Positions 1 to 8,211 of a stretch of 64,000 nt of DNA are shown here, piece by piece. Origin of the DNA: a virus (taxonomy: Duplodnaviria; Caudoviricetes); the IMG/VR virus record IMGVR_UViG_3300020045_001345, positions 1-64,000 of that record; one strand, 5' to 3'. The position numbers and the translations under genes were made by a program. Below the pieces are notes generated by a model that worked only from the letters and a program-made list of their open reading frames with translations, searched no databases and was not told the DNA's origin. The stretch's first letter is position 1. Each line of letters begins with the position of its first letter.

Positions 1-116
1 TTGATTGAATGTTAGTGCTTCTGATAAATGATGCCAGTGTAATGTTTTTCATAATAATTTCTCAGTTGGTTTATACAAAATTGTATAACATATTATTTTA
101 TGCTTCTTTTATGCTG

Positions 117-347
117 TCAAGAGTTCTTTTTGAGGTTATTTTGAGTTAAGAAACTGTCAATTGTCCATTTACATTCTTTAATTGTAAATTCTTTAATCCA
201 ATCTTTATTTTCGACAGGATCAAATATACAGTAACACTCAACATCTTTTGACGTTGGTTTTCTGCTAACTACACTACCATTTTTGTCTAGTTTCCAGTCG
301 GCACAAATTGAATAAACCGGATTAATAGTAAATCCTTTATAATTCAT
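117..347 (-). CDS. hypothetical phage protein
   Basis: ORF track 117..362; start moved to MNYKG, which lies just after the stop of the upstream small ORF. Confidence 0.6.
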   Translation of the reverse strand: MNYKGFTINPVYSICADWKLDKNGSVVSRKPTSKDVECYCIFDPVENKDWIKEFTIKECKWTIDSFLTQNNLKKNS

Positions 348-348
348 C

Positions 349-429
349 TCAAAACCCTCCAATAATTGCCAACATTATAAACAATGCCAACATAGCAATA
401 TACGCTTGATTATCCGAAAAGCTTTTCAT
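349..429 (-). CDS. small hydrophobic peptide (26 aa, MKSFSDNQAYIAMLALFIMLAIIGGF)
   Basis: Hand-translated; AGGA upstream, one TM-like stretch, stop abuts the next ATG. Confidence 0.45.
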   Translation of the reverse strand: MKSFSDNQAYIAMLALFIMLAIIGGF

Positions 430-669
430 TTTGACATCCTAACTTTAATATACAAAACTGTTTCAATGGCGAGGGTAATTACAAGGGAAGCTATCATTTT
501 ATTCTTTCAAAAATTAATAAATACATTCTACAGCATGGCAAGCAAAGAAGTGATTTTATAAGCGTTTTAACGTCTAATTGATTCGCCTGACTATTCTATA
601 AAATCTTGCAACATCATCACAATGTTGCCTTTTCTTCTTTCCTCTTCAGATTCGTAAATCCGATGTGAG

Positions 670-821
670 AATAGTCTCATGAATTAAAAGAAGCTGTCAA
701 CTACTTTATACAAACTAATTCAAAATGAAGTATTAAATAATTCGCTTATATATGTACATTCATGCGCTACTCGCAAATAGCAAATAACGCTTGCAAGCTT
801 CCCTATTTTCATGAGACTATT
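670..821. repeat. 14-bp perfect inverted repeat flanking 124 bp
   Basis: AATAGTCTCATGAA (670-683) and TTCATGAGACTATT (808-821). Confidence 0.8.
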
Positions 822-1208
822 TGCATCAGCTACAAAACACCGAAGCAATAAGCTACAAGCAAGATGTGCTTACTCAGCTAATACGTCAATCTCACGCTAG
901 AAAACTGTTCAATATTTAAAAATGTATTTCTTGCCAACTATGGCATTATTTTTAAATGTTGTGCGGAATAATCCACCTACGAGTGGATTGTCTCCGGAAA
1001 TGCCTGTCATATTCATTAATAATATTTCCCTATCAATTCCGACATTTCCATTAATATTCACGTTTGCGCATATGCATATTCAAGTATTTACTTATTTGCG
1101 TGTATATGCAAATAGCTAAAGAAGCAAATGCTTATGAACGTATATACGAATATATCTAAGAACGAATATTCTAGCTGAAATGGATGGGCGAAATCTCCTA
1201 TTACACAA

Positions 1209-1290
1209 CAAACTGCATTTTAATTTTTGCTATACTTATGAAACTGCATTCAAATTTTACATTATTGTTGCAACTGATTCCAAATTATAA
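1209..1290. repeat. three phased imperfect repeats AACTG(C)ATT..AATT
   Basis: AACTG at 1211, 1242 and 1272 (spacing 31 and 30 bp), each followed by (A/T)AATT. Confidence 0.5.
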
Positions 1291-1364
1291 TTTATATTCT
1301 ATACAAATCCACATAAAAACATAGACGTATAAGATTTCCTTCTCAGGTTCTTATACGGCTATTT

Positions 1365-1706
1365 CTATTTGTTCTCAAATTTTAGTTTTAATGCTTCATA
1401 CTCTAGCCGCTCAGCAGCCTCCTTCTGCGCTGTAATCTTATTAGCAAAAGCTTTTCTACTTTCAAATTGAGCATCTGTTTCAATTACACCTTTAGTAATC
1501 TTTAGGGATGTGGACTCATCTTCTTCATTCTCTAACATAGCACCTCCACCATGCCGATCCCTGTAGTGCGTCAATATCTTGATTGCATCATCTATTGTTC
1601 CATCACATAAGTAAATTCCACGTTCCGCTGTTCTTCTAACCAATATCTTCTCACTCATATCATTCATCTCCCAATGTTTCATTAATATTACAGCATTCCA
1701 GTTCAA
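1365..1706 (-). CDS. hypothetical protein
   Basis: ORF track; true start probably MSEKIL. Confidence 0.55.
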   Translation of the reverse strand: MNWNAVILMKHWEMNDMSEKILVRRTAERGIYLCDGTIDDAIKILTHYRDRHGGGAMLENEEDESTSLKITKGVIETDAQFESRKAFANKITAQKEAAERLEYEALKLKFENK

Positions 1707-1822
1707 TGTCCTTCAAAACTGAGTGCATTTAACTGTTGTCGTATTTTGTGGCATATTATCTCTGATAATCCACGTAATAGCCGTTACAGCTTTTGCTAGT
1801 GGTTTAATAGCCTCTTCATTTG

Positions 1823-2083
1823 TCATTCTTGTACTCCTGCAGATTGAATAGTATCTTCTATTTCAAGCTCATACAAGTGTTCCAAGTAATCACTGTATAA
1901 ATACATTCCATTAGTATCCAACACCTTATAAAATCCTCCACAACCTGTTTTAAGGAGCTGTGACAGGCTGCTAGAACTGTCGTTACAAGATTTGCACACT
2001 AACAGGCACAAATCCTTGTGAAGCCTAAATAGGCTCTCATACTCCAATGGCTGAGAGCTTCCTGATGCTATTAGTTCATACAT
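1823..2083 (-). CDS. hypothetical protein
   Basis: ORF track; AAGGAGA RBS upstream. Confidence 0.6.
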   Translation of the reverse strand: MYELIASGSSQPLEYESLFRLHKDLCLLVCKSCNDSSSSLSQLLKTGCGGFYKVLDTNGMYLYSDYLEHLYELEIEDTIQSAGVQE

Positions 2084-2216
2084 ATGTTATTCTCCTTACG
2101 TTGCTGAGATTATTTAGTTGGAATTTCTTGAAGCCCTGCACACCAGAAATATTTGTATCAGGACTATCTGAAACTTTCTCAATGGAAATATTTAGATATT
2201 CCCTCATGTAAAATAT

Positions 2217-2492
2217 TTACAATACACATTCATCGTAGCTAATCTTAATCTTAGCCTTAGACTCCTGCATAACTCCATTCTTAAACCATTTAATCCACAT
2301 GTCACCTTCCTCCTCACCAACCCCTTCAAGGGTAAATAATTCCATAGGGTATTTCTTGGAGAATTCCTTCATATCTTCTTCATGTTCGTACCATTTTACA
2401 TATTCCAAACAATAGTACCCAGAGATATCTTCTTTAGATTCTTTTACAATACTTCTATTGTAAGATAGTTCATACGTTGTGTAATAACTCAT
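2217..2492 (-). CDS. hypothetical phage protein (WYEHEEDM...GEEEGDMW)
   Basis: ORF track; AGGAGA RBS. Confidence 0.7.
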   Translation of the reverse strand: MSYYTTYELSYNRSIVKESKEDISGYYCLEYVKWYEHEEDMKEFSKKYPMELFTLEGVGEEEGDMWIKWFKNGVMQESKAKIKISYDECVL

Positions 2493-2493
2493 A

Positions 2494-2736
2494 TTATTCT
2501 CCTATCAATTTTAAATAACAAGGATGTCTTACTAAGCAATACTCCTTATATACAGGATACAACACTTTGACTATGAAAACAAGTTCATCTACACAATTTT
2601 TGCTAATTTCTATAATCGTCCCAATGTTTTCAAGTTGACTATGCCCATCCTGATCAGGAATTGAATAAACTTCTACATATCGACCAATTTGAAATTTTAT
2701 CAAGTCTTGTTTGTCATATTTTAATTTAAATGTCAT
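2494..2736 (-). CDS. hypothetical protein
   Basis: ORF track; tightly packed between neighbours. Confidence 0.6.
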   Translation of the reverse strand: MTFKLKYDKQDLIKFQIGRYVEVYSIPDQDGHSQLENIGTIIEISKNCVDELVFIVKVLYPVYKEYCLVRHPCYLKLIGE

Positions 2737-2737
2737 C

Positions 2738-3391
2738 TCATTCTCCCTTTAATTTATATTGCTCAAGCTTCCTATTGTACACGTTCTCATACTCTTGTAA
2801 AGCCTTTTCACAACTATATTCTTTCAAATGTCTTTTAACACTAGACAATGATATTGAAAACTTTTTAGCTAGGTTTCCCTGAGACATACTCTTTTTGCTA
2901 GAAATAAGCTGTCTCATATCCACTGGAGATAGTTTATCTGGAGCACCTAATATTGTCCCTTGAGCCTTTGTACGCTCTAAGCCCATCTTAACACGGTATT
3001 TAAGATTAGCAAGCTCCATGGCTGATATGCTGGCTGCTATCGTAAGGATCATGATACCAATTGCACTAGCACAATCAATATTAGGATATTGCAGTATATA
3101 TAGCTCAATACCTAAATCCTTAATCTCATCAATGAATATCAATAAGTCTTTAGTACTGCGTGTAAGCCTGTCCTGAGCAGAGACAACCACTTTGCTACCT
3201 CTTGGAAGAGACTTCATCATCTTGCTAAACTCTACACGCTTCATAGGGGGAACAGTGCCAGAGACACCTATCTCTCGGTATACCTCATCAAGCTTCCATC
3301 CTGCACTCTCTGCTGCTATTTGTTGGTTACTAATATCTTGAGAGTCTATAGTGCTTACACGGCTATACAATACAATTTTAGGCTTGGTCAT
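2738..3391 (-). CDS. small serine recombinase (resolvase/invertase family) with C-terminal HTH
   Basis: Catalytic YSRVST, GVSG, DRLTR, ELANLKYRVKMGLERTKAQGTILGAP; C-terminal HTH SQGNLAKKFSISLSSVKRHL; GGAG RBS before MTKPK. Confidence 0.92.
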   Translation of the reverse strand: MTKPKIVLYSRVSTIDSQDISNQQIAAESAGWKLDEVYREIGVSGTVPPMKRVEFSKMMKSLPRGSKVVVSAQDRLTRSTKDLLIFIDEIKDLGIELYILQYPNIDCASAIGIMILTIAASISAMELANLKYRVKMGLERTKAQGTILGAPDKLSPVDMRQLISSKKSMSQGNLAKKFSISLSSVKRHLKEYSCEKALQEYENVYNRKLEQYKLKGE

Positions 3392-3422
3392 TCTTTTCTC
3401 CACATATCTAAACAATGGAGCT

Positions 3423-3451
3423 ATATTAATCATTATTCTTTCTTATGTCAA
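3423..3451 (-). promoter_or_regulatory. sigma70-like promoter of the recombinase gene
   Basis: TTGACA-17-TAATAT on the minus strand. Confidence 0.6.
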
Positions 3452-3605
3452 CAACTATCTTATTCTTTATTTCTTATTCATTACATTTATTATTGTGCTA
3501 CGATGCTCTACACACTCGTATTCATATTGCATGAACCACTCATCTTGTATGTATGCTTATTATTAACGTATCTATGCTTCCGTACTATACCTGCTAGTGT
3601 CCTTA

Positions 3606-3647
3606 ACAGTACCTTATTAGTAATACTTTACAGTATCCCTATTAGTA
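3606..3647. repeat. direct repeat pair in the AT-rich region upstream of the recombinase
   Basis: ACAGTACCTTATTAGTA (3606-3622) and ACAGTATCCCTATTAGTA (3630-3647). Confidence 0.6.
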
Positions 3648-3659
3648 TAATATCTTCTT

Positions 3660-4078
3660 AGGAAAATTGAGAGTAAAAGATGCCCTACCCTTCCGTGTAG
3701 GAAGGGCTTGTAAGGGTCTTTACTCTCTGTTATCTTCTTGAGGTTTCAGTAGAGTAGAATGTGTAGCTTAGATGCTCACACTCCTTAGCAAAGCTTTACT
3801 GTGTTCTAACAGTTGTCTAGTGTCTCTGCCAGAAGAACGTAACTTTGGATGATACAATGTCTTACGACATTCCATGCTACAATTCTCCCAGATGCTCACT
3901 CGTACCTTAAGACGGCCTATGGTGGGTACGTTAGTTTCATATAGCAGCCAATCAGGGCAAATGCACAGCTATACTAAGGAAGCATAATTATTATGCAACC
4001 CTCAACACTTTCAGTTGTTTTCAATTGCACAGCTTCTCACAGCTTTCTAGCACAAGTCCATGTACTAATTCAATTGAT
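3660..4078 (-). ncRNA. candidate structured non-coding RNA (~410 nt)
   Basis: No substantial ORF on the ORF track; own promoter; several stems, including AAUGUC-GUAA-GACAUU, a long-range 11-bp stem and a 59-nt 3' hairpin. Confidence 0.45.
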
Positions 4079-4084
4079 GGTGAT

Positions 4085-4113
4085 ATTGTACACCCTTGTA
4101 GGTGATTTGTCAA
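4085..4113 (-). promoter_or_regulatory. near-consensus sigma70 promoter
   Basis: TTGACA-17-TACAAT. Confidence 0.8.
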
Positions 4114-4186
4114 GCTTTATTTATGAATCCTAGAACTATTTTAATTGAATCACTCTGAGCCTATTTGCAAGCCTATAAACTGGATT

Positions 4187-4223
4187 AAAAGAGTGGGTTG
4201 ATAGGAATGTACCAACCACACTC
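4187..4223 (-). terminator. intrinsic terminator
   Basis: GAGTG(T)GGTTG...CAACCCACTC stem followed by TTTT, just after ORF 4243..4608. Confidence 0.65.
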
Positions 4224-4242
4224 ATTTGACAGGTTTTAGCCC

Positions 4243-4608
4243 CTAAACTCCATGCGTAGATTCCTCTTTAAGCTCTAATAACAACCCTACAAAGGCATAA
4301 GCACTCCACTCAGGATTATGTTTAATGAAATAAGAGCTATTTGTGTAGTGATTATCAAATGTTTCTCTTGATACTCCTATGCGTCTTAAGTATTTTGTAA
4401 TAAGTCCTGCTGTAACTTTGTCGGCATTGTTAGGCATTCTTACACCATACTTACTAGCAAGACCACTCCAATAGTTACTGTCAAGATACTCCAACTTAAG
4501 ATTGTGAATATTATTAGCTCTGTCTACAGACTTCTTAGCTGATGCTATGTGTGCAAGCCTTAAAGACTCTTTAATTTGCTCTGGTGTTCTGTTTCCAAAT
4601 TTATTCAT
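4243..4608 (-). CDS. hypothetical protein
   Basis: ORF track; GAGGAG RBS. Confidence 0.7.
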   Translation of the reverse strand: MNKFGNRTPEQIKESLRLAHIASAKKSVDRANNIHNLKLEYLDSNYWSGLASKYGVRMPNNADKVTAGLITKYLRRIGVSRETFDNHYTNSSYFIKHNPEWSAYAFVGLLLELKEESTHGV

Positions 4609-5093
4609 TATTTCTCCTCAAGTATTTTAACAGCTTTAATAAAATCCCTCATACGAAACCCCTGATAAGCGTCTGTTTGCACAAAACTATCCATCAATGG
4701 CTCCATATCACTATCGTCATCAAGAATGACAAAGTTGTTAAATTCTGCAGAATATTTATTAACCCATTCTAATATTTCTCTACCCCTACCAAATAAGTTA
4801 CCATCCATACCATTATGACAAGGAGTTTTCCAGCGATCATCAGTGTACATGTAAGTGCCTAATGAGGGGCAAGAAGCTCCCAGAATACCTTGTATAGCGC
4901 AGCAATTGTAAAGCTTCCTCCAAGAGCTGCTAATTACAATTCGACAGTTGTAGTCTTCACACAAACGTTTTACAAGGCCAAGAGACACTGGGTCAAGATA
5001 GTTATAACCACACTTCTCACCCTCAGATATGCAAGTCTCAGGATTACAAATAACTCCATCAAAGTCTAGGAAAATTATATTTGGTTTATTCAT
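4608..5093 (-). CDS. HAD-superfamily phosphatase (RNA-repair/Swiss-army-knife HAD type)
   Basis: IFLDFDGV, IVISSSWR, RGREI..W, FVILDDDSDM. Confidence 0.85.
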   Translation of the reverse strand: MNKPNIIFLDFDGVICNPETCISEGEKCGYNYLDPVSLGLVKRLCEDYNCRIVISSSWRKLYNCCAIQGILGASCPSLGTYMYTDDRWKTPCHNGMDGNLFGRGREILEWVNKYSAEFNNFVILDDDSDMEPLMDSFVQTDAYQGFRMRDFIKAVKILEEK

Positions 5094-5266
5094 TATTCTC
5101 CCTTTTCAAATAGTTTAAAATCTAGTGTCATTGTCTTATCACGCCTACTAATAGAATAACTATCATCTCTAATACTAATATTAGTCAAGAACACGTGGTG
5201 AGATTCTAAAGTTTTATTAAGCATCACTCTAACAGCCTCTTGCATTTTAACTTCGTCTTTAATCAT
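5093..5266 (-). CDS. hypothetical protein (57 aa)
   Basis: Hand-translated MIKDEVKMQE...; AAGGAG RBS; fills the gap exactly. Confidence 0.55.
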   Translation of the reverse strand: MIKDEVKMQEAVRVMLNKTLESHHVFLTNISIRDDSYSISRRDKTMTLDFKLFEKGE

Positions 5267-5610
5267 ACAACTCCTTTATAATTTAAAATCCATGACATAC
5301 CTACTGATAATAGTACATCCTCTGCTGCATTTGCAAGACGTTTTAGTTGCTTAACTTCATACCCGTAAGGAGTTTCATTATTCTTGGCAGAATAATAGCT
5401 CCAACAGTAAGTATCAAATCTTGAATAACACTCAAGCCTTGTTATAGCTTCCTTCTCTGTTAATGTCCGTCCAAATAACCAGAATTTCTTACATTTCATT
5501 TCTCGTAGAATAATACGTCTCAATTTATCCTTATTTTCTATTGTACATTTCTCAATGTACTTCTCAATACATTGCAGGATAATTTCAGAACTAATTAGTG
5601 CACTACTCAT
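5263..5610 (-). CDS. hypothetical protein
   Basis: ORF track; AAGGAG RBS. Confidence 0.65.
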   Translation of the reverse strand: MSSALISSEIILQCIEKYIEKCTIENKDKLRRIILREMKCKKFWLFGRTLTEKEAITRLECYSRFDTYCWSYYSAKNNETPYGYEVKQLKRLANAAEDVLLSVGMSWILNYKGVV

Positions 5611-5622
5611 AATTTCTCCTTA

Positions 5623-6066
5623 TTAATTAACATTAAAATGATTAGACACAGCTTCTTGCACATAACTTTTAACATCATCCTTAAGAGCTTCAACAGTAGC
5701 AAATGGAATAGTTTCTTTAACCACTTCAGCTATCAGATCCTTATTATCTACGATAGCTTTTCGGTAAATATCGTAGGCATGGTTGGTTTCCTTGCTCCAA
5801 GCATCAGGTTTATTAAAGATGTTATACATTGATAAGCTACTAATTAAATCTGTAACTTTATCTGTTAGCACCTCATCTAAGCGACTATTAAATTGCTTAT
5901 CCACAAGCTTATAAACAATGTCATAAGCCACATTAGAAACAAGACGTTTAAAATTATCTTCATTCTCAAAGAATTTCTCACAGCATTTACTGAACTCGTA
6001 TTTAGCAATATCTTTAAATTCATCTTCATCTACAAACTGAAAAACATCAATTTTTAATTCGCTCAT
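5623..6066 (-). CDS. hypothetical protein
   Basis: ORF track. Confidence 0.65.
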   Translation of the reverse strand: MSELKIDVFQFVDEDEFKDIAKYEFSKCCEKFFENEDNFKRLVSNVAYDIVYKLVDKQFNSRLDEVLTDKVTDLISSLSMYNIFNKPDAWSKETNHAYDIYRKAIVDNKDLIAEVVKETIPFATVEALKDDVKSYVQEAVSNHFNVN

Positions 6067-6308
6067 AATTTCTTCTCCTTATTCAAATAAAACAATCTAC
6101 TCTCAGCAATATCAAGCTGGAAGCTCGTATTAGCTAAAGCCTTCTTAGCTACTTGCAACACCTCGTACATAGCTATCAAATCCTCATCCTCTTTATCAGG
6201 CATGTCAGAGAGTTTAACACGTTCTAACGCTTCGTGGTAGGCTTTATATGAAGCTTTGATGTTATCATCTGACATGGGAGTATTATCAGACATTGATTTA
6301 TCAGACAT
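6063..6308 (-). CDS. hypothetical protein
   Basis: ORF track; overlaps neighbours. Confidence 0.6.
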   Translation of the reverse strand: MSDKSMSDNTPMSDDNIKASYKAYHEALERVKLSDMPDKEDEDLIAMYEVLQVAKKALANTSFQLDIAESRLFYLNKEKKL

Positions 6309-6513
6309 TTGGAAGCTCCTGCCATTGATAGGCTTCCATAATTTTCACTATCATTGAAAAAGCTAGAGAAGAATCTTTTGTGAAATACAAATCGTTCATA
6401 GAAGCATGCAGAGAAGTATTAGCAGATAACTTACTAAAATATGTGTTAAAGAAATGCTGCCCAACTCGAAGTTCTGGTGGGACAGATGAAAGGAAATCTT
6501 TAAGGGTTGTCAT
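6301..6513 (-). CDS. hypothetical protein (LRVGQHFFN motif)
   Basis: ORF track; start moved to MTTLK. Confidence 0.6.
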   Translation of the reverse strand: MTTLKDFLSSVPPELRVGQHFFNTYFSKLSANTSLHASMNDLYFTKDSSLAFSMIVKIMEAYQWQELPNV

Positions 6514-6514
6514 A

Positions 6515-6700
6515 TCAGTCCTTCCAATAATTATCATAAGCCTCTTTAGAGGACATATCTACTTCTGTGCTGGCTCCTAAGTGGGTAACACCTTCTGGTA
6601 CAAGGCAGTGGCTATACGTACCATCAATGTGCTCAAAGAACACTATTTCACCATCTTCTAATTTAACGTAAGAGCATCGTGGTACATTATAAAGTTTCAT
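6515..6700 (-). CDS. hypothetical phage protein (MKLYNVPRCS...HIDGTYS)
   Basis: ORF track; AGGAGGT RBS. Confidence 0.7.
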   Translation of the reverse strand: MKLYNVPRCSYVKLEDGEIVFFEHIDGTYSHCLVPEGVTHLGASTEVDMSSKEAYDNYWKD

Positions 6701-6701
6701 A

Positions 6702-7043
6702 TTATTTACCTCCTTTAGATTTACCTACTAATTGTTCGTCAAGCTTACTATCAATTACTTTAAATAGTTTGTCCATTGTGGTAGACACTTTTGGATTACT
6801 TGCAACATCTTTACCAACTTCCGCAGCAGCCATAAGATAGACTGTATTCTTGTCTGGGATTAGCGCTGCCAATAAACCTATAACACCTGCAATTACTACT
6901 AATTTTTTGATATGAGGAATGACTTCCTCTTTAATAATGCAGCCAAACAAAATCACAGCAAAACCTATTGTCATAAGAAGCCACAGAAAATTAGATATAT
7001 TGCTTGAAATTCCTGCCAAATATAACATTATTGTAACGTTCAT
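6702..7043 (-). CDS. membrane protein, 2-3 TM
   Basis: Hydrophobic segments, LIPDKNTVYLMAAAE; AGGAGA RBS before MNVTI. Confidence 0.7.
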   Translation of the reverse strand: MNVTIMLYLAGISSNISNFLWLLMTIGFAVILFGCIIKEEVIPHIKKLVVIAGVIGLLAALIPDKNTVYLMAAAEVGKDVASNPKVSTTMDKLFKVIDSKLDEQLVGKSKGGK

Positions 7044-7044
7044 A

Positions 7045-7515
7045 TTATTTCTCCTCTTTATCAAGAATATATTGTTTGATAGCTGCATTAGCTACTGCTA
7101 ATAAATCTGCATTGCACTTTTCTGGCATACTACTAAAAATAACTGCAAGCTCTTTGCCCGACAAACTCGTCTCAGGAAACACTCGCTCATGAACAACTTC
7201 ATCTGCAAAGCGATATCGATTCTTATCTGACCAAGTTGGATTTTTAGTTTCTATCCAAGTGTGATCTTGCATATATTCAACAACCCTATAAGGGTTAGCA
7301 GCCCATGCGACAATCATGTCGTGATGAGGGTGTTGTTTAGGTGCAGCAATTAATAAATACTCCACAAAATACCAATAATCTGTTTTATCTTCGTTATATA
7401 CGGAATAGCTTTCATCAATAAAATTTCTAACTTCATAAGATTTACCAAGATTAAGAGGACTCCCACTACTATGAAGAATCTGCACCATATCACCAGCTTT
7501 AAATTTCTGTGTCAT
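7045..7515 (-). CDS. hypothetical protein with N-terminal FKAGD.V (SH3/KOW-like) segment
   Basis: ORF track; AAGGAGA RBS. Confidence 0.65.
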   Translation of the reverse strand: MTQKFKAGDMVQILHSSGSPLNLGKSYEVRNFIDESYSVYNEDKTDYWYFVEYLLIAAPKQHPHHDMIVAWAANPYRVVEYMQDHTWIETKNPTWSDKNRYRFADEVVHERVFPETSLSGKELAVIFSSMPEKCNADLLAVANAAIKQYILDKEEK

Positions 7516-7532
7516 TTGTTTCTCCTTATTTG

Positions 7533-7853
7533 TTAATGTGAGCTAATTATATCTAACTTTTCAATATCTGTCAACTTATTCTTAGGCTCTGAAAACATTC
7601 TCATAATTTCTTTCTCGCCCGATGGCAGAGGCTTTATCTTTAAATTGTATTCCAGAAACACCACCCTGCAACCCTCATCATCTTTCATATCCACTCTGTA
7701 TGTACCTTTCAGGCTCATTCCTTTTAGTGTCCCATGTGTAGCCTCTTTGCCTTCTTGACCAACTTCTACTATAGACACTTCACAGCCGTTGTAATGTGTG
7801 TCGTAACGTAAGCTGTGAACAATACAAATATCTCCCACTTTAAACTTTGCCAT
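7533..7853 (-). CDS. hypothetical protein with N-terminal FKVGD (SH3/KOW-like) segment
   Basis: ORF track; start moved to MAKFK. Confidence 0.65.
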   Translation of the reverse strand: MAKFKVGDICIVHSLRYDTHYNGCEVSIVEVGQEGKEATHGTLKGMSLKGTYRVDMKDDEGCRVVFLEYNLKIKPLPSGEKEIMRMFSEPKNKLTDIEKLDIISSH

Positions 7854-8211
7854 ATAGCACCTCATTAAATAATTTCAAGTTCTTTTCTAGGGCTGCCTGA
7901 GCAAGTTTAGTTTCAGACTCTTCTCTTTCAGCTATTTTTGCAAGAGTTATTTTCTTAATGAGTTTGTTGAAATCTCTACTAATAACAAAGTTCTCCCATA
8001 ATGTTAGCTTAATCTTGCCAATATTCTCATCACTGTCATCACGGATACTCGCACTACTGCGAACATACAATTCAGAGTTGTGCACACTAAACCCGTAAGT
8101 TTTTAACCATATTGTGTTCTTATCTAAATTTATCATTGCTTCATTACACAATATAGAGCTTTCAGTTTGTTGCACAATATCCTGCCATATTTGTTCTGTA
8201 GATTTAGTCAT
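7840..8211 (-). CDS. hypothetical protein, first gene of the leftward operon
   Basis: ORF track; AAGGAG RBS. Confidence 0.7.
   Translation of the reverse strand: MTKSTEQIWQDIVQQTESSILCNEAMINLDKNTIWLKTYGFSVHNSELYVRSSASIRDDSDENIGKIKLTLWENFVISRDFNKLIKKITLAKIAEREESETKLAQAALEKNLKLFNEVLYGKV

What the first reader, a model, noticed from the sequence alone, without database searches (positions are those of the whole stretch)
3660..4113. Promoter-driven, ~410-nt structured non-coding region beside a serine recombinase
Seen: a terminator (4187-4223) closes the upstream operon. A near-consensus promoter (TTGACA-17-TACAAT, 4113-4085) then points into about 410 nt with no substantial ORF. The minus strand is dense with stems: GCAUAA/UUAUGC (3982-3996), UAUAGC/GCUAUA (3940-3973), CGUACC/GGUACG (3901-3930) and AAUGUC-GUAA-GACAUU (3856-3871), whose loop is a GNRA tetraloop only in this orientation. 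An 11-bp long-range helix (3876-3886 with 3756-3767) closes a ~110-nt domain, GUGAGCAUCU occurs twice 120 nt apart, and a 59-nt hairpin ends the region (3669-3727). I could not match it to tmRNA, RNase P, 6S, tRNA or group I/II intron signatures. Inference: an uncharacterised phage ncRNA. It may be linked to the neighbouring recombinase (guide, regulator or scaffold), or the adjacency may be coincidental.
Basis: partly seen in the sequence, partly recalled or inferred. Interest (0 to 1): 0.75.

Follow-up and report, generated by a model that had tools for sequence, protein, structure and literature searches.

The report
Orphan non-coding insert beside phage recombinase
About 650 bases with their own promoter and terminator but no gene sit in front of a recombinase gene in one freshwater phage; they probably give a ~400-nt RNA, but all seven related recombinase loci lack them and the RNA body folds barely better than chance, so this is an unproven, lineage-specific insert and not a recombinase partner.

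Summary
The listed sequence features are real. There is an 11/12 sigma-70 promoter (4113-4085), no coding potential in any frame, a GUAA hairpin, a strong terminal hairpin (3669-3727) and a terminator behind the upstream gene. The claim of a densely structured RNA is only partly upheld. The whole-region z-score (-3.9) comes mainly from the terminator hairpin (z -6.3).

Seven relatives with orthologous recombinases (51-71% identity) all lack the unit. Three have p121, a terminator hairpin, a promoter and then the recombinase within about 150 nt, or with a protein gene in between. The window's promoter resembles their recombinase promoter. The unit is therefore a lineage-specific insertion of about 650 nt into the recombinase leader, at a variable site.

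I found no homologue in Rfam, 50,697 phage records, plasmids or about 500 kb of related loci. Exact-word scans of IMG/VR and GTDB genomes also gave none. Covariation therefore cannot be tested.

Best reading: a moron-like non-coding transcription unit giving a ~400-nt early RNA of unknown role, not tied to the recombinase. Interest is low to moderate.

The parts
4243..4608 (-). p121, last gene of the upstream operon (phrog_21723, function unknown)
   Evidence: ORF list; PHROG hit 7.6e-15; 7 homologues at 44-62% identity
4187..4217 (-). Terminator-like hairpin and T-run behind p121. It is conserved in relatives, but the 6-nt loop is inverted here.
   Evidence: Scan; the same hairpin in L036, L035 and L003
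4085..4113 (-). Promoter P4113, TTGACA-17-TACAAT. It resembles the single recombinase promoter of the relatives.
   Evidence: 11/12 match; genome-wide promoter set; local alignment with the L036 promoter and leader start
3683..4078 (-). Predicted non-coding transcript of about 395 nt. The start and end are inferred, not measured.
   Evidence: Position of promoter and terminator; no coding potential; fold z -3.86 overall
3990..4078 (-). 5' domain of three hairpins
   Evidence: MFE -22.5 kcal/mol, z -2.86, 2 of 200 shuffles as good; helix probabilities 0.82-0.98
3831..3889 (-). Extended hairpin capped by the AAUGUC-GUAA-GACAUU tetraloop hairpin (3856-3871)
   Evidence: Pair probabilities 0.72-0.99
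3756..3784 (-). Hairpin GGAGUGUGAGC/GCUACACAUUCU holding the second GUGAGCAUCU copy.
3768..3875 (-). Candidate 35-aa basic ORF with GGGAGA 8 nt upstream. It is unsupported.
   Evidence: Translation; the Shine-Dalgarno sequence resembles those of the phage's own genes; codon score 0.007 against 0.22 +/- 0.10; no homologue
3669..3727 (-). 59-nt terminal hairpin, an intrinsic terminator whose A-tract pairs with its U-tract
   Evidence: Terminator scan 3702-3683; -30.4 kcal/mol, z -6.29
3966..3986 (.). Arm 1 of a 21-nt imperfect inverted repeat (18/21 complementary)
   Evidence: the repeat finder I1; 0.03 matches expected by chance in the window; closes the MFE fold of 3560-4000
3573..3593 (.). 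Arm 2 of the inverted repeat. It lies downstream of the terminator.
3452..3660 (-). AT-rich spacer (about 30% GC over 3440-3660) with three pairs of short direct repeats. It is part of the same insertion.
   Evidence: D5, D6 and D11; composition; absent from L036 and L003
3423..3451 (-). Second promoter P3451, TTGACA-17-TAATAT, directly in front of the recombinase
   Evidence: 10/12 match; alignment A3
2738..3391 (-). Small serine recombinase of 217 aa. The true start is the ATG at 3391.
   Evidence: Pfam Resolvase 2.2e-27 and HTH; homologues of 217-222 aa and alignment A1 start at M15 of the 231-aa frame

Best explanation
This is a lineage-specific, non-coding, promoter-to-terminator cassette of about 650 nt (roughly 4056-3452). 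It is inserted into the short leader between the recombinase promoter and the recombinase start codon, at a site where related phages differ in content.

Proposed working:
- Host sigma-70 RNA polymerase starts at P4113, together with the phage's other early promoters.
- It transcribes about 395 nt that encode nothing.
- It stops at the strong 3727-3669 hairpin.
- The recombinase is then expressed from the second promoter, P3451.

The product would be a free early RNA of about 400 nt with a few stable hairpins. It acts, if it acts at all, independently of the recombinase, for example as a trans-acting or decoy RNA.

Shown: the insertion, the lack of coding potential, the promoter and terminator motifs, and the absence from relatives. 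Inferred: that it is transcribed, where the RNA ends, and any function.
For: - Relatives L003 and L036 (recombinase 71% and 67% identical) have the terminator hairpin, one promoter (TTTGACA-17-TAGAAT) and the recombinase within about 150 nt. L035 has a 148-aa gene there. L004, L002, L063 and L064 have 0-72 nt.
- P4113 and the first ~20 transcribed bases align with the relatives' recombinase promoter and leader.
- P4113 matches the consensus 11/12 and belongs to a set of 22 such promoters that follow gene direction over most of the genome.
- The terminal hairpin is exceptional: -30.4 kcal/mol, z -6.3.
- There is no coding signal in six frames, no Pfam or PHROG hit and no homologue of the longest frame among 1.84 billion representatives apart from noise from repeat proteins.
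- The minus strand folds better than its shuffles while the plus strand does not: z -1.87 against +0.05 for the body, and -4.2 against -2.3 for 3560-4000.
- Body GC is 40.7% against 35% for the early region.
Against: - There is no expression data.
- No homologue was found anywhere, so there is no covariation or conservation.
- The body's folding z-score (-1.9) equals the most extreme of 17 coding windows. The core with most proposed stems is at z -1.6.
- A unit absent from every relative may be recent and without function.
- A 35-aa ORF with a phage-like ribosome-binding site lies inside it.
- A 21-nt inverted repeat spans the terminator, which a 395-nt RNA does not explain.
Confidence: 0.45

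Rival explanations
1. It is a non-functional remnant. DNA acquired by illegitimate or promoter-to-promoter recombination at a variable site is transcribed only because it landed behind the recombinase promoter, and the terminator and P3451 came along with it.
For: It is absent from 7 of 7 relatives and the site is variable: empty, a 148-aa gene, or other genes. The body folds within the coding background. The longest open frame matches chance. No homologue was found.
Against: The promoter is near-consensus and the terminator very strong. No trace of protein homology or codon bias remains in any frame. The strand asymmetry in z-score is 2.4 sd. GC is higher than in the surroundings.
Confidence: 0.22
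2. It is a cis-acting long leader or attenuator of the recombinase operon. P4113 is the ancestral recombinase promoter, and the terminator hairpin gates read-through into the recombinase and downstream genes. The 21-nt long-range helix (3986-3966 with 3593-3573) forms only in read-through RNA.
For: P4113 is homologous to the relatives' recombinase promoter. The inverted repeat closes the MFE fold of 3560-4000, z -4.2, with pairing probability 0.64-0.98.
Against: A separate 10/12 promoter lies directly before the recombinase. No Rfam riboswitch or leader matched. I did not identify an alternative antiterminator pairing. Relatives do without any such leader.
Confidence: 0.1
3. It is a small-protein gene. 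The 35-aa basic peptide (3875-3768) is the cargo and the rest is untranslated region.
For: GGGAGA lies 8 nt before the ATG and resembles the GGGAGAAT/AAGGAGA sites of the phage's real early genes.
Against: The codon score is 0.007 against 0.22 +/- 0.10. No homologue was found. The Shine-Dalgarno sequence is paired in the predicted fold with probability 0.82. The ORF covers only 108 of about 395 nt.
Confidence: 0.1
4. It is a DNA-level element. The 414-bp segment bounded by the 21-nt inverted repeats (3573-3593 and 3966-3986) would be either an invertible switch flipped by the adjacent serine invertase or a MITE-like insertion.
For: The inverted repeat is improbable by chance, with 0.03 matches expected. 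A small serine recombinase of the resolvase/invertase type lies next to it. The segment contains the terminator, so its orientation could matter.
Against: I see no internal dyad symmetry in the arms and no target-site duplication in the bases flanking them (sequence; arms). The terminator hairpin is nearly symmetric, so inversion would change little. Orthologous recombinases in 7 relatives have no such segment. The arm motif was not found in GTDB genomes. In IMG/VR it occurs in only one unrelated lineage, over 23 nt and with no recombinase nearby.
Confidence: 0.08
5. One reading: the RNA is a guide, regulator or scaffold of the neighbouring recombinase.
For: Adjacency only. P4113 shares ancestry with the recombinase promoter.
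Against: It is not co-conserved: 0 of 7 orthologous loci carry it. The enzyme is an ordinary resolvase-type protein with an HTH domain, which binds DNA by itself. A literature search for RNA-guided serine recombinases returned only IS110 and TnpB systems.
Confidence: 0.03

Closest known systems
Phage morons (independent promoter-gene-terminator cassettes inserted between conserved genes of related phages; from established knowledge of lambdoid phages)
   Same: It is inserted between genes or signals that are adjacent in relatives. It carries its own promoter-like and terminator-like signals and lies at a site with variable content.
   Different: The cargo has no ORF with coding signal. Classical morons encode a protein.
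Intergenic small RNAs of Pseudomonas phage PAK_P3 (sRNA1 and sRNA2; PMC4933390)
   Same: This phage is kin of the Pakpunavirus-like group: its polymerase and capsid are closest to Limnohabitans phage DC31 and Curvibacter phage P26059A. Virulent phages of that group do express abundant intergenic non-coding RNAs of unknown function.
   Different: The PAK_P3 RNAs are about 100 nt, late, and lie beside tRNA genes. Here the RNA would be about 400 nt, in the early arm and with no tRNA nearby. There is no sequence similarity to any of 50,697 phage records.
Large structured RNAs found in phages and prophages (GOLLD, ROOL, HEARO) and other Rfam families
   Same: It is a non-coding stretch of several hundred nucleotides in a phage.
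   Different: No Rfam model matches even at E<=10. Folding of the body is not exceptional. No conservation is known.
RNA-guided recombination systems (IS110 bridge RNA; IS607/IS605 TnpB omega-RNA)
   Same: A non-coding RNA gene lies next to a recombinase gene.
   Different: The recombinase here is a resolvase/invertase-type serine enzyme with its own HTH domain, not a DEDD/IS110 enzyme, and there is no TnpB. The RNA is not co-inherited with the enzyme.
Hin/Gin/Cin-type invertible segments
   Same: A small serine recombinase lies beside a segment bounded by inverted repeats.
   Different: The arms lack the dyad-symmetric 26-bp architecture. No enhancer was tested. The segment is absent from orthologous loci, and no second orientation has been seen.

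Membership tests
Any Rfam 15 family (including tmRNA, RNase P, 6S, group I/II introns, GOLLD, ROOL, HEARO, riboswitches) | Covariance-model score at or above the gathering threshold | tested here: not met
   0 matches in the window at gathering thresholds. At E<=10 on 3300-4400 the only match was a spurious bxd_4 hit inside the recombinase gene.
tRNA / tmRNA | Cloverleaf or tmRNA detected by ARAGORN | tested here: not met
   None in the window. Only implausible intron-containing calls appear at relaxed thresholds.
Structured functional ncRNA (generic) | Folding energy clearly beyond dinucleotide shuffles and beyond the genomic background | tested here: inconclusive
   The whole unit gives z -3.9 to -4.2. 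The body without the terminator gives z -1.87 and the core z -1.63. The coding background is -0.25 +/- 1.0.
Structured functional ncRNA (generic) | Covariation among homologues | not testable with these tools
   No homologue in phages, plasmids, about 500 kb of related loci or exact-word scans.
Phage moron | Insertion between elements that are adjacent in related phages | tested here: met
   L003 and L036 have the terminator hairpin, promoter and recombinase within about 150 nt. Alignment.
Phage moron | Own promoter and terminator | tested here: met
   Consensus scans only; hairpin z -6.3. Not verified by expression data.
Phage moron | Protein-coding cargo | tested here: not met
   No coding signal and no family hit.
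RNA-guided recombinase system (IS110 bridge RNA, TnpB omega-RNA) | IS110-type DEDD recombinase or TnpB nuclease next to the RNA | tested here: not met
   The neighbour is PF00239 Resolvase plus an HTH domain. No such gene among the neighbours scanned.
RNA-guided recombinase system (IS110 bridge RNA, TnpB omega-RNA) | RNA co-conserved with the recombinase | tested here: not met
   0 of 7 orthologous loci carry it.
Serine-invertase switch (Hin/Gin type) | Inverted repeats bounding a segment next to the invertase gene | tested here: met
   21-nt arms, 18/21 complementary, 372 nt apart.
Serine-invertase switch (Hin/Gin type) | Crossover sites with internal dyad symmetry, and both orientations present in a population | tested here: inconclusive
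   I saw no dyad symmetry in the arm sequences (sequence; arms).
Type I toxin-antitoxin locus | Small hydrophobic peptide ORF with a ribosome-binding site in a structured mRNA | tested here: not met
   The minus-strand ORFs are not hydrophobic. The hydrophobic plus-strand ORFs are what a T-rich strand gives and, bar one with a weak AGGA, lack a Shine-Dalgarno sequence.

The most novel reading that the evidence does not exclude
It is a previously unseen phage RNA of about 400-500 nt. It has a three-hairpin 5' domain, a GNRA-capped arm and, in read-through form, a 21-bp long-range closing helix. It would have been acquired as a mobile non-coding cassette and act in trans during early infection, for example as a decoy or regulator against the host.
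Probability: 0.15. Interest if true: 0.55.

Novelty: new member of a known kind. Interest (0 to 1): 0.25.

Why it matters
If the RNA is real and functional, it would be a non-coding 'moron' in a freshwater relative of the PAK_P1-like phages, a group already known to make abundant unexplained small RNAs. It would also show that non-coding cassettes are exchanged at the same hot spots as protein genes. As things stand the value is mostly negative. The adjacency to a serine recombinase that attracted attention is coincidental, so this does not point to a new RNA-guided recombinase. The apparent wealth of structure is largely one terminator hairpin.

Tried and rejected
- Rfam at gathering and permissive thresholds gave nothing. 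ARAGORN at normal and relaxed settings gave nothing credible.
- blastn of the gap against 50,697 phage records and 72,556 plasmids gave no match.
- blastn and nhmmer against all fetched loci (about 500 kb, including Limnohabitans phage DC31 and part of Curvibacter phage P26059A) gave nothing beyond short chance words. BLAST over three whole related IMG/VR records gave E>0.1.
- Exact-pattern scans:
  - The inverted-repeat arm consensus hit 14 IMG/VR contigs. They are one near-identical lineage, share only 23 nt and have no recombinase nearby, so I judged this chance.
  - The same arm consensus gave 0 hits in GTDB genomes.
  - The double GUGAGCAUCU pattern hit only unrelated repeats.
  - The GNRA hairpin word, the loop word and the 3784-3756 hairpin word each gave 0 hits.
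- The recombinase alignment against metagenome contigs found only one distant locus. Single-protein scans of IMG/VR found nothing.
- Pseudogene or small-ORF test: six stop-to-stop frames against Pfam and PHROGs at E<=1 gave nothing. The word-index search on the 66-aa frame gave nothing. The full HMMER search gave three hits, and the two I compared are eukaryote-like repeat proteins whose scores are inflated by repeats.
- TATGCTTC as a phage-wide binding motif: 6 copies against 3.1 expected, so not enriched.
- I did not build a single-sequence covariance model. The full unit exceeds practical model size and would add little over nhmmer.

Full report
CONTEXT
The window is the first 64 kb of a 77,919-bp IMG/VR virus record. 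Its family-B polymerase and major capsid protein are closest to Limnohabitans phage DC31 (filed under Pakpunavirus) and Curvibacter phage P26059A, at 47-59% identity. Bases 1-8200 form a minus-strand arm of small early-type genes.

The finding lies in the gap between p121 (4243-4608, phrog_21723, unknown function) and a small serine recombinase (Pfam Resolvase 2.2e-27 plus an HTH domain). Homologues of the recombinase are 217-222 aa and align from Met15 of the 231-aa frame. The true start is therefore the ATG at 3391, preceded by GGAG, and the gap is 3392-4242, 851 nt.

CHECKING THE OBSERVATION
- Promoter. TTGACA-17-TACAAT at 4113-4085 matches 11/12. The genome holds 22 such near-consensus promoters. 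In the early arm and the plus-strand block they follow the direction of the genes, so this phage relies on host-type promoters and this one is credible.
- Upstream terminator. The hairpin at 4217-4196 with its T-run is real and recurs behind the p121 homologue in three relatives.
- Coding capacity. The largest ORF with a start codon is 43 aa, and the longest stop-free frame is 66 codons, about what chance gives.
  - A codon-usage score trained on the phage's 53 long ORFs gives 0.17-0.23 per codon for real small genes that were not used in training.
  - The best 90-nt window of the gap, in any of six frames, reaches 0.078 at most.
  - Pfam and PHROG scans of the frames at E<=1 found nothing.
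  - A full HMMER search of the 66-aa frame against 1.84 billion representatives returned three hits. The two I compared are repeat proteins whose E-values are inflated by many weak repeats.
  - The region is non-coding.
- Known RNA families. Rfam and ARAGORN found nothing.

HOW STRUCTURED IS IT?
The stretch 3660-4080 folds at -126.5 kcal/mol on the minus strand, z -3.86, against z -1.94 on the plus strand. In a sliding scan of the early arm only this gap and 601-1200 stand out.

Dissection changes the picture:
- The 59-nt terminal hairpin alone gives -30.4 kcal/mol, z -6.3.
- Without it, the 344-nt body (3735-4078) gives z -1.87, with 5 of 100 shuffles as good.
- The 5' 89 nt give z -2.86.

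Seventeen coding windows of 344 nt from the same arm give z -0.25 +/- 1.0, with a minimum of -1.89. The body therefore lies at the edge of the background and not outside it.

The raw energy gap between the strands (-18 kcal/mol) is typical of this region's composition (-15 +/- 8). The z-score gap (-1.9) is 2.4 sd from the coding mean, a modest hint that the minus strand is the relevant one.

Base-pair probabilities for the whole transcript:
- Supported: the GUAA hairpin (0.99), the terminal hairpin (about 1), and strong local hairpins at 3889-3831 and 3784-3756.
- Weak: CGUACC/GGUACG (0.22).
- Not supported: GCAUAA/UUAUGC and UAUAGC/GCUAUA (0.02), and the 11-bp long-range helix (0).

A 21-nt imperfect inverted repeat (3966-3986 with 3573-3593, 18/21 complementary) brackets 372 nt, including the terminator. 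A pattern covering both arms is expected 0.03 times by chance in the window. It becomes the closing helix when 3560-4000 is folded, with z -4.2 on the minus strand and -2.3 on the plus strand. Its second arm lies beyond the terminator, so it can form in RNA only on read-through.

COMPARATIVE EVIDENCE
This is the decisive part. The recombinase has homologues at 51-71% identity. I recovered seven of their loci:
- L003 (71%) and L036 (67%) read terminator hairpin, one promoter (TTTGACA-17-TAGAAT), about 35 nt, then the recombinase. L036 also shows the p121 homologue in front, and the whole gap is about 150 nt.
- L035 (71%) has the same frame with a 148-aa gene inserted between hairpin and promoter. 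That gene is a homologue of window ORF 5623-6066.
- L004 (62%) has the HAD_SAK_2 gene 60 nt before the recombinase.
- L002, L063 and L064 have 56 nt, an overlap and 72 nt.

None carries anything like the window's unit by blastn or nhmmer.

The best local alignment of the L036 promoter region is to P4113 and the first ~20 transcribed bases (GTGTACAATA..ATTGAATTAGTACATGGA). The ribosome-binding site and start region align with the sequence behind the second promoter, P3451.

The simplest history is that about 650 nt were inserted into the recombinase leader. This block comprises the non-coding body, the terminator, an AT-rich repeat-bearing spacer and a second promoter. The site is one where related phages differ in content. 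In form this is a moron without a gene.

SEARCH FOR HOMOLOGUES OF THE UNIT
Nothing was found in 50,697 phage records, in plasmids, in three whole related IMG/VR genomes or in about 500 kb of fetched loci.

Exact-word scans:
- The inverted-repeat arm consensus hit one unrelated IMG/VR lineage (14 near-identical contigs). The shared stretch is only 23 nt, it lies in a terminase-side intergenic region, and no recombinase is near, which is compatible with chance.
- The same pattern and a hairpin word gave 0 hits in 185,579 GTDB genomes.
- Two further words gave 0 hits in IMG/VR.
- The double GUGAGCAUCU pattern hit only unrelated repeats.

These scans find only close relatives, so absence of distant homologues is not shown.

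INTERPRETATION
Shown:
- The stretch is non-coding and specific to this lineage.
- It is bounded by a strong promoter motif and a strong terminator hairpin.
- It is not co-inherited with the recombinase.

Inferred:
- It is transcribed from about 4078 to about 3683.

I rank the readings as follows:
- A stand-alone early RNA of unknown trans function: 0.45.
- A functionless recent acquisition: 0.22.
- A cis-acting leader or attenuator: 0.10.
- A 35-aa basic peptide gene: 0.10. It has a phage-like GGGAGA site, but a codon score near 0, no homologue and a paired ribosome-binding site.
- A DNA-level element, either an invertible segment or a MITE: 0.08.
- A guide or scaffold for the recombinase: about 0.03. 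The enzyme is an ordinary HTH-bearing resolvase/invertase type. A literature search for RNA-guided serine recombinases returned only IS110 and TnpB systems.

COMPARISON WITH KNOWN THINGS
- It works like a moron, but the cargo is not a protein.
- It parallels the unexplained intergenic sRNAs of PAK_P3 (PMC4933390) only in kind. Those are about 100 nt, late and beside tRNA genes.
- It is not a member of any Rfam family.

VERDICT

Noticed in passing
window 363-1364 (minus strand); L003 2300-3222: A second gap of about 1 kb with no ORF of 75 aa or more lies downstream of the recombinase operon. Unlike the finding, parts of it are conserved at the DNA level in relative L003 (69-80% over 45-179 nt). 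Bases 600-1000 fold at z -7.2, largely because of the perfect 14-nt inverted repeat at 670-683 and 808-821. With only two sequences, covariation is not informative (4 of 26 pairs changed on both sides).
   Followed up: partly
window 670-821; L003 2733-2777: L003 has only one copy of the ATAGTCTCA(T/C)GAA arm. Its adjacent TTGACA module points the opposite way to the window's copy at 700-671, and the window's other arm has a decayed TTGCAAG in that place. This looks like an inverted duplication of an arm-plus-promoter module. It does not prove inversion.
   Followed up: partly
window 4196-4217; L036 239-259; L035 and L003 equivalents: The terminator hairpin behind p121 is conserved, but its 6-nt loop is reverse-complemented in the window (CATTCC against GGAATG in three relatives). 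This is a small hairpin-loop inversion.
   Followed up: no
window 2738-3433: The 231-aa ORF call for the recombinase is too long. Homologues and the ribosome-binding site place the start at the ATG at 3391 (217 aa).
   Followed up: yes
window 3440-3660: The AT-rich spacer (about 30% GC) between the terminator and P3451 carries three pairs of short direct repeats, spaced 14, 21 and 25 nt. It is part of the same insertion and is absent from L003 and L036. These may be protein-binding sites.
   Followed up: no
L035 559-1005; window 5623-6066: In relative L035 a 148-aa gene sits between the p121 terminator and the recombinase promoter. Its homologue (51% identity) lies 1.5 kb further upstream in the window. 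The site is a hot spot for cassette shuffling.
   Followed up: partly
L038-L051 (IMG/VR, one lineage), e.g. L041 3135-3157: A 23-nt stretch identical at 22 positions to the window's inverted-repeat arm lies in the intergenic region beside a terminase/peptidase M15 operon of an unrelated virus seen in 14 samples. It is probably chance.
   Followed up: yes
L003 2451-2510: The unit TATATGCTTCTATACGTAT occurs three times in a row in the conserved non-coding region of relative L003.
   Followed up: no
L034 (Limnohabitans phage DC31) 16848-17667 and 19819-20751: This cultured relative also has unannotated gaps of 820 and 930 nt in its early arm. I did not examine them for transcripts or structure.
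   Followed up: no
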